Shown here in pieces: positions 36,265 to 41,286 of a DNA stretch of 64,000 nucleotides. The position numbers were made by a program, and so were the translations under genes. Source of the DNA: the human T2T-CHM13v2.0 reference genome, Homo sapiens; NCBI RefSeq assembly GCF_009914755.1, contig NC_060932.1; one strand, written 5' to 3'. Position 1 is the first letter of the stretch; every line of letters starts with the position of its first letter. Below the pieces are notes generated by a model. It did not search any database. It worked only from the letters and a program-made list of their open reading frames with translations, and was not told the DNA's origin.

Positions 36265-37344
36265 GACACCACGTGGAGGCCTTGCACCCCCACTCCGTGC
36301 TTCTCTACCAAATCCCAACGGTATTGAGCTCACTTAGCACTGACGTCTGTGGAAAGCAGGGAAAGCCCTGGCTCCCAAAGCCCTGAAGTCCTGTGGAGCT
36401 GACATTCCCTGAGTGACGGTGTGAACGGAGGGAACTCAAGTGTTAGTGGTAGGCCACCTCCTGGCCTGGGCCTGGGTGGACTCTGAGGGGACACATGTAG
36501 TCACAATCCCACCCTCCCATTCTCCTTCTCAGAGGAAGGAAGTGGGCACCCATCTGCCTCATCTCTGTCCCATGGTGATGACGGAGAATTTCAGGGCACC
36601 TTTCACATGAATTTCACCAGCTCAGATCTGTGAGGACGGGGCCCACCATGCTCCTGGAGCTGCCAGAAGCCGTGAGCCCCTCCCAGGTCCCTGGGTTTGA
36701 GCCAGCCCTGTATCATCCCCAGGAGCTGAATGTCCCAGCAATGGATAGAACTAGATGGAACCGGCTCCCAGTTTGGCCTGAGACTGTCCCTAGACATTCA
36801 GGAAAAACAGGACATCCCACAGAGCGGGCAGGTGATCTCCAGTTCACAGACCCTGAGTCTGTTCCCCTGTAAGAAAGACCTTGCCCCTCACTCCATTCAC
36901 ATCCCAGGTCCCAAATGGTACAAGACAGAAAGAAGCCCTGGTCATATGAGCAGAACGAGGGGATGTTCTGGGGTTTCTTGTGTCCAAATTTGCATAAGAG
37001 CTCCTGGGTATACTTTTCTCTCAGAGGGCCATTTGTCTGATGCCCCCAGTAAGGTGGTCAGTTTCAATCACTGTAATTACTGATGTGGTAGGCAATACCT
37101 GTTCCAAATTCTGCCCAGTGACCAGGGGCCAAGACCTGTTTAGATGGAAGGCTCGGTGTCCTCCCCAGCCTCAGCTCATGGTGAAGCTCCCAGCCATCAC
37201 CCATAAGGGTCCTTATCTTCTCTTCTCATTCCGCTTCATATTCCTGATGCCTCTTCCACATGAGATGAGTCAGGGAAATAAGAGGCTTGGAAAAGTGGAA
37301 AAATGGGGTAGAGGCTCTCTCTTGCCTCTCTCTCACCTCTTTCT

Positions 37345-37433
37345 CTCTCATCCAAGTACTAGTTAGGCCCACTCCTGCTTAGCTTACAAGATCAGAGGAG
37401 ATCAAACATGTTCAAGGTGCTATGGCCGTAGAC
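37345..37433 (-). pseudogene. 5S rRNA pseudogene fragment (about the first 90 nt)
   Basis: Reverse complement GTCTACGGCCATAGCACCTTGAACATGTTTGATCTCCTCTGATCTTGTAAGCTAAGCAGGAGTGGGCCTAACTAGTACTTGGATG matches the 5' part of 5S rRNA. Confidence 0.93.
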
Positions 37434-38520
37434 ACTCTCTCTCTTTTTCTCTGTCTCTCATGTCTATATCTCTCCTTTGTCTCCTTTCTCTGCCTCTTGT
37501 ATTTCTCTCAGTGTCAGGACACTCCCTCTCTCCCTGTCTCCCCTACAGCTTGACTCCTTTTGTCCCTTTCTCTCTTTCTTCTACTATCACTTCTAGACTG
37601 AGTAGATTGCATGCCTTACTTTGTTGAACCAAACTCCATTTCCTTCAATATGAAAGGAGTTTAAGAGCTTCATGGCTGCCTCACTCCCTCTTCTAAGCCA
37701 GAGGGGCCCAGTAGCCTGTAAATCTCATCTCCTCCCTGATCTTCACTCTATGACTGCTAAGACTATGGTTGAAAACTGTCAGGCGACTTTTATTTTTCAA
37801 TAAAAGTGAGAAATTTTGATTTTATCCAAAGAAGTAAGTACAGAATGTCATTTTCTAAATTTTTATATTTAAAGTGTAGATTTGAGTGACCTAGAGAATT
37901 TCAGGTAGTGATAAGGCGCAGCCTGTACTTTGGGAAGTTGTGTTTGGGACACTGGCCCTTCGTCTTTTCAGATGGAAGGCCCTGGAGAACACTTGCCCTC
38001 TGTGGCTGCTCTAGGTTCACAGGACAAAAATGCTTATTGAAAGCCACTTTTAAAATGGAATGCCTAATTTTATTTTCTCCTTGATATTATAAGAATAAAA
38101 TAAAAGGGTGAAGGAAGAAAAGGAGAGTGGAAGGGAGGAAGGGAGAGAGAAAGATAATTTGAGACTAAGACCTGAGATATCTAATCTGATAGAAATTACA
38201 TAGAAAAAGCCTCATTTTATCCATATTGTTTATGGGTTTTGGGTTACAGAGGAGCAGCAGGGCTCCTGGAGGCACAGACACTGGGCGATATTCCACCACT
38301 TAGGAGAGTATGAAGGAAGAGACAAAAGGGAGGAAAGGAGGAAAGGAAGGAGGGAGGACAAATGGAAGAGTGAGATTGAGAACAGAATTTAGAGATTAGA
38401 AACAATTCATTACAAAGGTTTACTTCTACTGTTAATTATTGTTTTTAATTGTAATCTACTTTCTTTTATTTGTCTTTTTTCATTCCCAGCTCCCCTCCCC
38501 CTGCCCCTCCTTGCCCCTCC

Positions 38521-38832
38521 TTCTTTTTTTTTTTTTTTCTTTTTTTTTCTGAGACAGAGGCTTGCTCTGTCACCCAGGCTGGAGTGCAATGGCATGATCT
38601 CGGCTCACTGCAACCTCCGCCTCCCGGGTTCAAGTGATTCTCCTGCCTCAGCCTCCTGAGTAGCTGGGATTACAGGTACCCACCACCATGCCCAGTTAAT
38701 TTTTGTATTTTTAGTAGAGACAGGGTTTCACCAGGTTGGCCAGGCTGGTCTCAAACTGCTGACCTCAGGTGATCCACCCACCTAGGCCTCCCAAAGTACT
38801 GGGATTAGAGGCGTGAGCCACTGGGCCCGGCC
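38521..38832 (-). mobile_element. AluS element in the pseudogene intron
   Basis: Full dimer; absent from the DEFB4 intron (~13955). Confidence 0.95.
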
Positions 38833-41286
38833 CTAAGTTACTTTCATATTAAATTCACATTAAACAGTTTCTGCCATTTGAGCCACATCTTTTTCTTGCA
38901 TCTCATTTTAAAAACTTAACGGACTTCATGATTTGGAAAGCAGAGGTTACTGGCCTGTGTGTGTAAATGGAGGTAGGGTAGCTTTGAGGTTATTTTTGTG
39001 TGGTGGAGCTGAATTCTCAAGAAATCCTTGTTGAGCTGCTACCTGAGCCCATCTGGAGGCCCCAGTCACTTAGCAGAGATCGGTCTTTCACATTCTGGTT
39101 CCAGGAACTAAACATTCCCAAACCACGTCAGGGCCAGCCTCCTTTTAAGAAACTTAGGTTCACGTCATCATTCACTCATGTCTCATGATCATGATCAAAA
39201 TCCCAGGCTTGGAAAAGAAACTCACCAGAGATTTATTCAAGTCAACACCGACACAGGCTTTGTGCTTTTCTGACATGGGGTTTTGAATTCTAACACCCTA
39301 TCACTCCTATTGTCCTTTGATTTGCTTATTGTTTATTGCTTCTGGGTTTTTTTTCTTTTTTTTCTTTTCCTTTCTTTAGGTTTTTCTAAAGATATAAGAA
39401 ATCCTGCTAGCTGACACAGGAATAAAGGTGTGTGTGTGTTCTGAATGTTTGCTCTACAAGCTTGAAACAGATTGGCACCTATGGCCATGACAGAATAAAA
39501 TGCTGCAAAAAGTAACGAGGAGTCCAAGAAGTTTCTGTGACTAATGTGGATTCAGAAAGGGCTCACTCAGCAGAGACGTGCCACATTTAAACCAAATTAA
39601 GCTACGGTGTTCGAAGACATGGAATCTTTATCCTAGTAATTGTAATTGTGATTGTGTAACGTTGGTTTCGGACTAGCGAATCTCTGACATCTTTGGAATG
39701 TCCTTCCCAGCTCTCCAGACCAGGGGTCAGGGATGGCACAGGAGGAGTTTTTTGGGTTGCTCCTCCAGTAACCCAAAACCAACAGGAGCAACGGGATATT
39801 AGAATTCAAAACCCCATGTCAGAAAGACACAAAGTCTGTGTCAGTATCATCTTGAATAAATCCACGGTGAGTTTCTTTTCCAAACCTGAGCTTTTCCATC
39901 ATCATGAGATGTGAGTGAATAATTATGAGTCATAAGTTTCTGACAAGGAGACTGGCACTGCTGTGATTTGGGGGAGGCTTAGTGACATCTGTTCCCTTTA
40001 GGTCCCTTGACCTTCCCCAATTATTCCCATTGTTTTCCTATAACTGTGCTTTGCTCCTCCTACTTCCTCTCTTTGCGTGCCCTCACCTACCCCACATCTT
40101 CCTGGAAGACTGTGCCTCATTAATGTCCCAACTCAAAGGCCTCTTTCCTCCTGGAATCAGGGTGATCCACTAAGGAGGGAACACCCTATCCTCTTGTTCT
40201 TCACAAGCACTCCCTCCTTCTGGTTTGGCCTGCTTATGCAATTGTGCTTCCTGCTCATGTGGATAATTTTTTACTTCTCCAATAGTCTATGAGCTCTCTA
40301 CAGGTATGGACTTTCTCTTATTCATGTATGTAGTGGTCATTGAGGAAGAGGTGTTACTTCATAAATTATTATACATTTAATGGCAAAGTTGAGTTGCACA
40401 AAGCATTTCCTCACATCTAGACATAATTTTGATTCATGTAAAAGCTCTTAAAAACAGGTCCTTTTTGAAGGTACAGTTAAATGAGGGCAATATAGCACAG
40501 AACACAATGAGAGGAGAGCAAACCTCAAGAAGAAAGACAGTATAGACTCTGAGGGGAAGCATCAAGATGCCTGCCTAGCCCTGCCCTCTCTCATTGGGCA
40601 GTTTAACTCGTTTGATAGTTAAATCGTGAACTCTGCAGGTATACCCTACATGTCTATGAAGCTCTCTGCTTCTTGATATTAACTTTTCTCTTAATGTGCA
40701 TACCATCAACCTCTAGCTAAAGGCATTTTTGTCTAAAATAATCCATTGGATTTCCTAGAGTATCAAGATTGGAAAAAAAAAAATCAGACCTAGAGATTTT
40801 TTGTAGATCCTTTAACCAGGCCAAGAGGTGAGGGAGGCACTGGATGCAGGTGCAGAATTTGGGGATCAAAAAATTCTGCACTCAAGATAAGTGATCTTAT
40901 AATGTATGTGTTTTTTTTTTTTTTTGTAAAAAAAAAAAAATTGATTCAAAAGTAACACATGATCTACAAAATATTCAAGTTTTAAATAAGGACAGAATCT
41001 AATCCTGCTATTGTGCAACTCAAACTTACCCACCTCACCTTGGTCCCAGGCCTGTCCGATAGTCTTATTTATTTAACCATTTAATTTTTATAATATGTGA
41101 CATTTTTAGTTTGAATGAATTTGTTGCTCTCCTGGTGCCTGGAAGTTTAGGTAGAGTTTACATTATATATCCCATGATATTTGCAATGTCCATATACTAA
41201 AAAGTTATTCACAGACATTTTTCTCCTTAAAGACAATTTTTGTGGCCAAAGTATTTATTTGCTACACTGAGTTTTATTTTACTAGG

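What the first reader, a model, noticed from the sequence alone, without database searches (positions are those of the whole stretch)
37203..39515. Resurrectable extinct hBD-2 sister defensin resembling TAP/pBD-1
Seen: exon 2 regains the canonical C-x6-C-x4-C-x9-C-x6-CC pattern after three repairs: TGA 39412 to Cys, removal of one GT from the (GT)n run at 39428-39439, and TAT 39480 to TGT. The product is GFSKDIRNPASCHRNKGVCVLNVCSTSLKQIGTCGHDRIKCCKK*, about +6 from DIRN onward. Exon 1 needs its ATG, one base and the GT donor restored. Knowledge (recalled): RNKG[VI]C and a KK* end are features of bovine TAP/LAP and pig pBD-1, whereas hBD-2 has LKSGAIC...KKP*. Inference: the dead copy preserves more ancestral residues and its mature region is far from DEFB4, so one or both evolved rapidly before this copy was lost.
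Basis: partly seen in the sequence, partly recalled or inferred. Interest (0 to 1): 0.85.

Follow-up and report, generated by a model that had tools for sequence, protein, structure and literature searches.

The report
Dead ancient duplicate of DEFB4 defensin
This is a long-dead, intron-containing duplicate of the human beta-defensin 2 gene that rides along in every copy of the 8p23.1 defensin repeat; it is a real but fairly ordinary gene relic, missing from the RefSeq gene table supplied with the window.

Summary
Window 37167-39624 is a two-exon relic collinear with DEFB4A, 24.5 kb upstream.

**Lesions**
- Exon 2: TGA at Cys1, an extra GT in a (GT)6 run, and TAT at Cys4.
- Exon 1: no ATG, one base missing, and no GT donor.
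- I add a broken TATA box, a broken poly(A) signal and Leu-to-Arg in the signal peptide.

**Origin.** It lies in an old tandem duplication, 2378-19485 against 28862-42248. Intron K2P is 0.35, so the duplication predates primates.

**Copies.** All 3 of 3 CHM13 repeat units carry it with the same lesions.

**Other species.** Two Old World monkey protein models carry the same C-terminus with the same Tyr at Cys4. That lesion is therefore older than the ape-monkey split.

- The R-N-K-G motif is shared with TAP, LAP and pBD-1.
- Overall the relic is not more ancestral than hBD-2: 19 against 24 of 41 matches to an outgroup consensus.
- dN/dS against DEFB4A is 0.95.

**Prior description.** Seven full-text searches found none. 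GENCODE and Semple 2003 could not be checked.

**Verdict.** A new member of a known kind, of modest interest.

The parts
28862..42248 (+). Relic-side arm of an old tandem duplication; the DEFB4A-side arm is window 2378-19485
   Evidence: Collinear blastn pieces of 70-92% identity. K2P per segment runs from 0.08 to 0.37.
37139..37143 (+). Remnant of the TATA box (T-TTAG against TATAAG at 12658, 29 bases before the annotated DEFB4A start)
   Evidence: Alignment; motif positions.
37167..37202 (+). Equivalent of the DEFB4A 5' UTR, 33 of 36 bases identical
37203..37259 (+). Exon 1 coding equivalent (signal peptide). ATA stands for ATG, one base is missing from codon 4 (37212-37213), codon 11 is CGC (Arg), and the last base is C instead of G.
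   Evidence: 51 of 57 bases are identical to DEFB4A.
37260..39379 (+). Retained intron. The donor is AT instead of GT (37260-37261) and the acceptor AG is intact (39378-39379). An antisense Alu-like SINE at about 38521-38834 is absent from the DEFB4A intron.
   Evidence: Intron identity 0.726, K2P 0.347 over 1558 aligned sites. The name 'Alu' is my reading of the sequence and is recalled.
39380..39515 (+). Exon 2 coding equivalent (mature peptide). TGA at Cys1 (39412), an extra GT in (GT)6 at 39428-39439, TAT at Cys4 (39480), TAA stop at 39513.
   Evidence: Pfam PF00711 scores 24.9 bits for 39429-39512. 89 of 137 bases are identical to DEFB4A.
39516..39624 (+). Equivalent of the 3' UTR, 89 of 106 bases identical. 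The poly(A) signal is changed to ATTAAG at 39596-39601.
39780..39972 (-). Inverted copy (79%) of the relic's own intron end 39117-39312. The two arms flank exon 2. There is no counterpart on the DEFB4A side.

Best explanation
This is an unprocessed (duplicated) pseudogene of the DEFB4 lineage.

An old tandem duplication of roughly 13-17 kb made two epithelial-type beta-defensin genes side by side. Each had exon 1 for the signal peptide and exon 2 for the mature peptide.

The downstream copy kept an R-N-K-G-V-C start like TAP, LAP and pBD-1 and evolved its own last loop (G-H-D-R-I-K). It then died. The Cys4-to-Tyr change was already present before apes and Old World monkeys split. The other seven listed lesions cannot be dated from what I saw, though four of them look later than that split.

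Today the relic makes no defensin. It is carried passively, once per repeat unit, in the copy-number-variable 8p23.1 block.

- **Shown:** the anatomy, the lesions, the three copies, the duplicated block and the shared Tyr.
- **Inferred:** the dates, the former function and the order of the lesions.
For: 1. **Collinear homology.** The relic matches DEFB4A through promoter, exon 1, intron, exon 2 and UTRs. The homology extends over 2378-19485 against 28862-42248. The intron is retained, so it is not a retrocopy.
2. **Eight disabling or weakening lesions**: TATA box, ATG, a 1-base deletion, the donor, TGA at Cys1, a +2 frameshift, Cys4 to Tyr, and the poly(A) signal.
3. **Copies.** 3 of 3 CHM13 copies (chr8 7.12, 12.07 and 12.61 Mb) share all lesions. 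They differ at 33 positions in about 2.9 kb, none in the exon 2 coding part. Each lies about 25 kb from a DEFB4 copy.
4. **Monkey models.** Of 32 hits in the search of 1.84 billion representatives, one is from Piliocolobus. A follow-up search added a Theropithecus protein. Both end in the relic's 27 C-terminal residues, 24 of 27 and 26 of 27 identical, with Tyr at Cys4. Both carry Arg at the exon 1 junction, as in the human C at 37259.
5. **Tree.** On 33 rows and 44 columns the three relic rows form one clade (100/98), apart from the DEFB4 clade (98/97).
6. **Age.** Intron K2P is 0.347 and the flank reaches 0.37. From recalled figures, this is about twice the human-branch length since the human-mouse ancestor.
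Against: - No expression data were available, so transcription or a non-coding role is not excluded.
- The monkey proteins are automatic gene models that read into the intron and skip the first half of exon 2. I had no monkey DNA. Their exon 1 could in principle be borrowed from the DEFB4 orthologue, so the dating of the ATG loss, the deletion, the donor loss and Leu-to-Arg is only moderately secure.
- Whether the TGA and the GT insertion are shared with monkeys is unknown.
- K2P varies from 0.08 to 0.37 along the block. The age estimate therefore depends on treating the least similar parts as unconverted.
- Only one human genome was examined.
Confidence: 0.93

Rival explanations
1. The locus is dead as a defensin but is used as non-coding DNA. 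It could be a transcribed non-coding RNA, or its upstream block could act as a regulatory element for DEFB4 or its neighbours.
For: Parts of the duplicated block are far more alike than the intron. 7640-8082 against 33860-34298 has K2P 0.08. The 900 bases before exon 1 have K2P 0.175. 5' UTR plus exon 1 against the intron gives p = 5.5e-5. Constraint is one way to get this pattern.
Against: Gene conversion between the arms explains the same pattern without any function. The TATA box and the poly(A) signal are both broken. The RefSeq table supplied with the window lists no transcript or functional element here.
Confidence: 0.05
2. It is a polymorphic pseudogene, and some human copies still encode a working peptide.
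For: The block is copy-number variable, so many copies exist in the population. The (GT)n run is a mutable site. The three CHM13 copies already differ at two exon 1 positions, 37227 and 37238.
Against: All eight lesions are present in 3 of 3 copies. The Cys4-to-Tyr change is shared with 2 of 2 monkey models, so it is fixed and old. Restoring a frame would need several independent reversions.
Confidence: 0.01
3. The resemblance is chance or an artefact of choosing repairs, and there was never a gene here.
For: Three hand-picked edits can make many sequences look better.
Against: Homology to DEFB4A is collinear over more than 13 kb, with E down to 0. Pfam is passed without any edit. Orthologous sequences exist in two monkeys.
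Confidence: 0.005

Closest known systems
[quoted passage not shown]
   Same: Same two-exon layout, the same repeat unit and a nearly identical signal-peptide exon: 51 of 57 bases and 16 of 18 comparable residues. The K-Q-I-G-T and K-C-C-K-K stretches are shared. DEFB4 is the only other place in the genome that matches the relic's exon 1.
   Different: The relic is broken at eight places. Its mature part shares only 15 of 41 residues and 65% of bases. It has R-N-K-G-V-C where hBD-2 has K-S-G-A-I-C, and G-H-D-R-I-K where hBD-2 has G-L-P-G-T-K. It ends KK rather than KKP. A protein search of the genome with DEFB4A exon 2 does not find the relic.
Bovine TAP and LAP, pig pBD-1 (epithelial beta-defensins usually treated as DEFB4 relatives; pBD-1 is called closest to DEFB4 in PMC3499285, passages)
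   Same: They share S-C-x-R-N-K-G-[VI]-C, K-Q-I-G-T-C and identical cysteine spacing. By hand count the relic matches TAP at 19 of 38 positions and pBD-1 at 20 of 38. It matches LAP (P0031) at 18 of 41 by script. On the tree, LAP-like rows are the nearest by path: P0028 at 0.98 and P0031 at 1.08.
   Different: hBD-2 is just as close to TAP (20 of 41 by hand count), so the likeness is shared ancestry of the whole group. A clade of the relic with P0028, P0031 and P0015 is not found and costs 4.6 log-likelihood units (p-AU 0.16). Those genes are intact and expressed; this one is not.
DEFB109P and DEFB108P (listed beta-defensin pseudogenes of the same 8p23.1 cluster; PMC544879 and PMC3942070, passages)
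   Same: Dead or doubtful beta-defensin genes in the same cluster, products of the same birth-and-death process.
   Different: They belong to other beta-defensin lineages and are named and studied. The DEFB4-like relic appears in neither paper's list of cluster genes and pseudogenes.
Automatic gene models A0A8C9IJU2 (Piliocolobus tephrosceles, P0018) and the Theropithecus gelada protein P0038
   Same: They appear to be the same locus in Old World monkeys. The last 27 residues are 24 of 27 and 26 of 27 identical, including Tyr at Cys4.
   Different: They are filed as proteins. They start with Met, read from exon 1 into the intron (R-E-M-G-Q-G-N-R-R) and join exon 2 only after its first half, which suggests the normal reading is closed there too.

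Membership tests
Beta-defensin (Pfam PF00711) | Profile match above the curated cut-off | tested here: met
   39429-39512 scores 24.9 bits, E 2.1e-5, against a cut-off of 21. The N-terminal 20 residues alone give no match. The best solved-structure matches are mouse-BD4-derived P9R, hBD-2 and bovine BNBD-12, with E from 0.005 to 0.13.
Beta-defensin (Pfam PF00711) | Six cysteines spaced C-x6-C-x4-C-x9-C-x6-CC in one open frame | tested here: not met
   4 of 6 Cys codons are intact. Cys1 is TGA and Cys4 is TAT. The spacing appears only when the +2 shift in the GT run is crossed.
Beta-defensin (Pfam PF00711) | Two-exon gene with the signal peptide in exon 1 and the mature peptide in exon 2, joined by a phase-1 intron | tested here: met
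   The layout is collinear with DEFB4A, with the split codon at the same place. The donor GT is lost.
Unprocessed (duplicated) pseudogene | Intron and flanks retained, lying beside the parent gene | tested here: met
   A 2120-base intron is present and the duplicated block covers 28862-42248.
Unprocessed (duplicated) pseudogene | Disabling lesions fixed in all copies and shared with related species | tested here: met
   3 of 3 CHM13 copies carry them. Tyr at Cys4 is in 2 of 2 monkey models. Other humans and monkey DNA were not examined.
Unprocessed (duplicated) pseudogene | No transcript and no protein product | not testable with these tools
   No expression data were on hand. The RefSeq table supplied has no row here.
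DEFB4 orthologue group (hBD-2, monkey BD-2) | Groups with DEFB4 orthologues on a tree | tested here: inconclusive
   The relic clade (100/98) stands apart from the DEFB4 clade (98/97) and the backbone is open. Holding the two together costs 0.8 log-likelihood units, p-AU 0.46.
TAP/LAP/pBD-1 group (artiodactyl epithelial defensins) | Orthology shown by tree or by synteny | tested here: inconclusive
   Holding the relic with P0028, P0031 and P0015 gives p-AU 0.16. Synteny is not testable because no artiodactyl DNA is held.

The most novel reading that the evidence does not exclude
This would be hidden paralogy. The DEFB4/relic duplication is about as old as placental mammals. On this reading the relic's lineage, not DEFB4, is the human counterpart of the R-N-K-G-type epithelial defensins: TAP, LAP and EBD in cattle, pBD-1 in pig, and perhaps the intact Prolemur simus protein P0009.

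Catarrhine primates would then have lost a whole ancient defensin that other mammals still rely on at their airways and tongue. The usual statement that these genes are 'hBD-2 orthologues' would be wrong.
Probability: 0.2. Interest if true: 0.5.

Novelty: new member of a known kind. Interest (0 to 1): 0.3.

Why it matters
- **Locus map.** It adds one unlisted member to the map of a medically studied, copy-number-variable locus. Any probe, primer or read-mapping scheme for DEFB4 exon 1 or its promoter has a second target at 84-92% identity in every repeat unit.
- **Dating.** It gives a dated example of defensin birth and death: an old duplication, divergence of the mature peptide at the neutral rate, and loss before the ape-monkey split.
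- **Annotation of other primates.** At least two monkey 'proteins' in public databases look like read-through models of a dead gene.
- **Orthology.** If the hidden-paralogy reading were right, it would change how cattle and pig defensin work is mapped onto human hBD-2.
- **Peptide test.** The conceptual peptide (+6 charge, canonical spacing once read across the breaks) could be made and tested. It would be one more cationic defensin, not a new principle.

Tried and rejected
- **Word-index protein search.**
  - With DEFB4A exon 2 it returned only 6 close hits.
  - The remaining two searches went on naming P0018 and P0009.
- **ESM Atlas.** A search with P0009 gave only generic beta-defensin clusters and no lead.
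- **Tree and AU tests.** On 44 columns they could not place the relic. None of the three groupings I named was rejected.
- **NF-kB sites.** A strict pattern scan of both promoters found none in either, so nothing can be said.
- **Literature.**
  - Seven full-text searches found no description of a DEFB4-like pseudogene.
  - The relic's peptide string occurs in 0 papers.
  - Passages of PMC544879, PMC3942070, PMC4255768, PMC1156880, PMC7946850 and PMC3385616 list other pseudogenes only.
  - Semple et al. 2003 (PMC156587) is the likeliest place for an early mention. It is not held, so I saw nothing of it.
  - No supplements were opened.
- **Retrocopy reading.** Rejected because the intron is present.
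- **Recent segmental copy of DEFB4.** Rejected because intron identity is 73%, against about 99% between repeat units.
- **Structure prediction.** Not run, because the tools take only unaltered sequence and no unbroken piece reaches 30 residues.
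Full report
**1. What is there**

- ATA stands in place of the start codon at 37203.
- The donor position reads AT (37260-37261), after an exon that ends in C.
- The acceptor AG is intact at 39378-39379.
- TGA is at 39412, (GT)6 at 39428-39439, TAT at 39480 and TAA at 39513.
- Frame 1 of exon 2 reads FSKDIRNPAS*HRNKGVCV. The frame two bases on reads CVCVLNVCSTSLKQIGTYGHDRIKCCKK*.
- Read across the breaks with X, the product from DIRN onward has 8 K/R and 2 D/E, a charge of +6.
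- One detail differs. A spliced message would give Arg from C+GT.

**2. It is a gene relic, not chance**

A global alignment with DEFB4A is collinear from 200 bases before the transcription start to 200 bases after the 3' end.

| Segment | Identity to DEFB4A |
|---|---|
| 200 bases upstream | 0.744 |
| 5' UTR | 0.917 |
| Exon 1 coding | 0.895 |
| Intron | 0.726 |
| Exon 2 coding | 0.650 |
| 3' UTR | 0.840 |

- The intron is kept, so this is a duplicated gene and not a retrocopy. It holds an antisense Alu-like insert that DEFB4A lacks.
- The C-terminal 28 residues pass the Pfam beta-defensin cut-off unedited, at 24.9 against 21 bits.
  - The TATA box is broken: TATAAG at 12658, 29 bases before the annotated start, against T-TTAG at 37139-37143.
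  - One base is missing from codon 4.
  - Codon 11 is CGC (Arg) in the hydrophobic core of the signal peptide.
  - The poly(A) signal is ATTAAG at 39596 where DEFB4A has ATTAAA at 14663.

**3. Surroundings**

- The homology is not confined to the gene. Window 2378-19485 and 28862-42248 are two arms of an old tandem duplication.
- The HSPD1P2 retrocopy (about 8503-10775) interrupts only the DEFB4A arm.
- A 390-base repeat (35877-36265) and the intron Alu interrupt only the relic arm. These insertions came later.
- K2P is uneven along the arms.
  - 7640-8082 against 33860-34298: 0.08.
  - The 900 bases before exon 1: 0.175.
  - The rest upstream: 0.20-0.27.
  - The intron and downstream flank: 0.29-0.37.
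- Exon 1 plus the 5' UTR is significantly more alike than the intron (Fisher p = 5.5e-5). Exon 1 dS is only 0.18.
- I read this as gene conversion of the upstream part after the duplication. This is an inference, and constraint is the alternative.
- The least similar parts then date the duplication. K of about 0.35-0.37 is roughly twice the human-branch length since the human-mouse ancestor (a recalled figure of about 0.16). The duplication is therefore about as old as the placental radiation and is not a primate event.

**4. Copies**

- The exon 2 DNA has 3 exact matches in the CHM13 genome, at chr8 7.12 Mb (minus strand), 12.07 Mb and 12.61 Mb.
- Over about 2.9 kb the three copies differ at 33 positions. 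None is in the exon 2 coding part and two are in exon 1 (37227, 37238). All lesions are shared.
- Each copy lies about 25 kb from a DEFB4 copy.
- The exon 1 region matches only these three copies and the three DEFB4 copies, the latter at 84%. DEFB4 is therefore the only human relative.
- A protein search of the genome with DEFB4A exon 2 does not find the relic. That may be why pipelines miss it.
- The RefSeq table supplied with the window has no row here.

**5. Relatives elsewhere**

- A search of 1.84 billion representatives with hBD-2 gave 32 hits.
- One hit, P0018, is an uncharacterised Piliocolobus tephrosceles protein. A follow-up search added P0038 from Theropithecus gelada.
- Both monkey proteins have the same build.
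  - They start with a DEFB4-like signal peptide with Met.
  - They carry Arg at the exon-intron junction, matching the human C at 37259.
  - They read on into intron-like sequence and then join the relic's last 27 residues.
  - Those residues are 24 of 27 and 26 of 27 identical to human, with Tyr at Cys4.
- The Cys4 loss therefore predates the ape-monkey split.
- On these models, four lesions look later than that split: the lost ATG, the 1-base deletion, Leu-to-Arg and the GT-to-AT donor change. I had no monkey DNA, and such models can borrow exons. P0005 from marmoset joins a DEFB103-type first exon to DEFB4A exon 2 (recognising that signal peptide is recall).
- Whether the TGA and the extra GT are shared cannot be told, because both models skip that part.
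- P0009 from Prolemur simus is intact and begins G-F-S-K-D-I-T-N-P-V-S-C-F-R-N-K-G-A-C-V. Of the intact proteins it shares the highest match to the relic's exon 2 part, 21 of 41, level with P0014.

**6.

- *Distance.* The relic's exon 2 part matches hBD-2 at 15 of 41 residues. It matches LAP (P0031) at 18 of 41, P0028 at 20 of 41 and P0009 at 21 of 41. P0031 is named LAP from PMC12947540 Table 1.
- *Motif.* TAP and pBD-1, as printed in PMC5715947 and PMC12649489, both carry R-N-K-G-[IV]-C. The recalled likeness is real.
- *hBD-2 is just as TAP-like.* By hand count the relic matches TAP at 19 of 38 positions and pBD-1 at 20 of 38. hBD-2 matches TAP at 20 of 41.
- *Consensus test.* The comparison is with the majority consensus of the 26 other rows.

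| Region | Relic | hBD-2 |
|---|---|---|
| All 41 positions | 19 | 24 |
| First 17 | 9 | 8 |
| Last 24 | 10 | 16 |

  - Dropping five long branches gives 20 against 26.
  - The rows were fished with hBD-2, which favours hBD-2.
  - Each copy therefore kept a different half. The relic kept R-N-K-G, and hBD-2 kept P..CP....[13 protein letters not shown].
- *A side note.* The macaque DEFB2L primer in PMC4255768 encodes D-I-R-N-P-V-T-C by my hand translation. PMC1156880 notes that Asp4 is peculiar to human and great-ape hBD-2. The relic's D-I-R-N-P is thus the older state of that stretch.
- *Rate.* NG86 between the two exon 2 sequences gives dN 0.45, dS 0.48 and a ratio of 0.95. The ratio is 0.80 for the mature part.
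- *Exon 2 against intron.* The mismatch excess of exon 2 is borderline, at 48 of 137 against 434 of 1585 (p = 0.06). This fits relaxed or diversifying change after duplication. It does not prove positive selection and cannot say which copy changed.

**7. Tree**

- With 33 rows and 44 columns the three relic rows form a clade (100/98) and the DEFB4 rows another (98/97). The backbone is open.
- The nearest rows by path are P0028 and LAP.
- I left out P0002 (a near-duplicate fragment), P0003, P0004 and P0006 (fragments or synthetic) and P0016 and P0037 (long multi-domain). I also masked the intron-derived parts of the two monkey models.
- AU tests reject nothing.

| Grouping held together | p-AU |
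|---|---|
| Relic with DEFB4 | 0.46 |
| Relic with the lemur protein | 0.44 |
| Relic with P0028, P0031 and P0015 | 0.16 |

- Orthology to the artiodactyl genes therefore stays open.

**8. Is it known?**

- Seven full-text searches found no paper that names a DEFB4-like pseudogene or prints its peptide.
- The gene and pseudogene lists of the cluster in PMC544879 and PMC3942070 do not include it. Nor does the locus figure legend of PMC7946850 (passages only).
- I could not see Semple et al. 2003, any supplement, GENCODE or pseudogene.org. An unnamed database record is quite possible.

**9. Verdict**

- The claim that it is the more ancestral copy is not supported.
- It is an ordinary product of defensin birth and death, of modest interest. 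The open question is whether it, rather than DEFB4, is the true counterpart of the cattle and pig epithelial defensins.

Noticed in passing
window 39117-39312 and 39780-39972: A 79% inverted repeat flanks exon 2 of the relic. The downstream arm is an inverted copy of the last about 190 bases of the intron. It has no counterpart after DEFB4A exon 2, and it is equally far (79%) from the DEFB4A intron end at 14227-14407.
   Followed up: partly
window 7640-8082 vs 33860-34298; 12069-12313 vs 36560-36800: These two patches of the old duplication are 88-93% alike, while the neighbouring sequence is 71-78% alike. Each occurs only twice in the window. They look like gene-conversion tracts or conserved elements about 4.6 kb and 0.5 kb upstream of both genes.
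   Followed up: partly
window 8503-10775: The HSPD1P2 retrocopy interrupts the DEFB4A arm of the duplication. It is absent from the relic arm, where 35110 and 35122 are adjacent in the alignment. It was therefore inserted after the duplication.
   Followed up: no
window 21369-21823, 26805-27265, 35872-36266: A repeat of about 450 bases occurs three times. The first two copies are direct and 92.7% alike. The third is inverted at about 75% and sits just upstream of the relic's promoter, with no counterpart upstream of DEFB4A. The first copy overlaps the RefSeq enhancer 20512-22355.
   Followed up: no
proteins P0018, P0038, P0005 (public database entries): Three primate 'proteins' look like faulty gene models. 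Two monkey entries read from exon 1 into the intron of the dead gene. A marmoset 'DEFB4A isoform X2' joins a DEFB103-type signal exon to DEFB4A exon 2.
   Followed up: partly
window 13740-13860 and 38100-38360: Both introns carry purine-rich GGA/GGGA-type simple repeats at matching places. The DEFB4A one is much expanded, as (GGGA)n and (CAGGGAGG)n.
   Followed up: no
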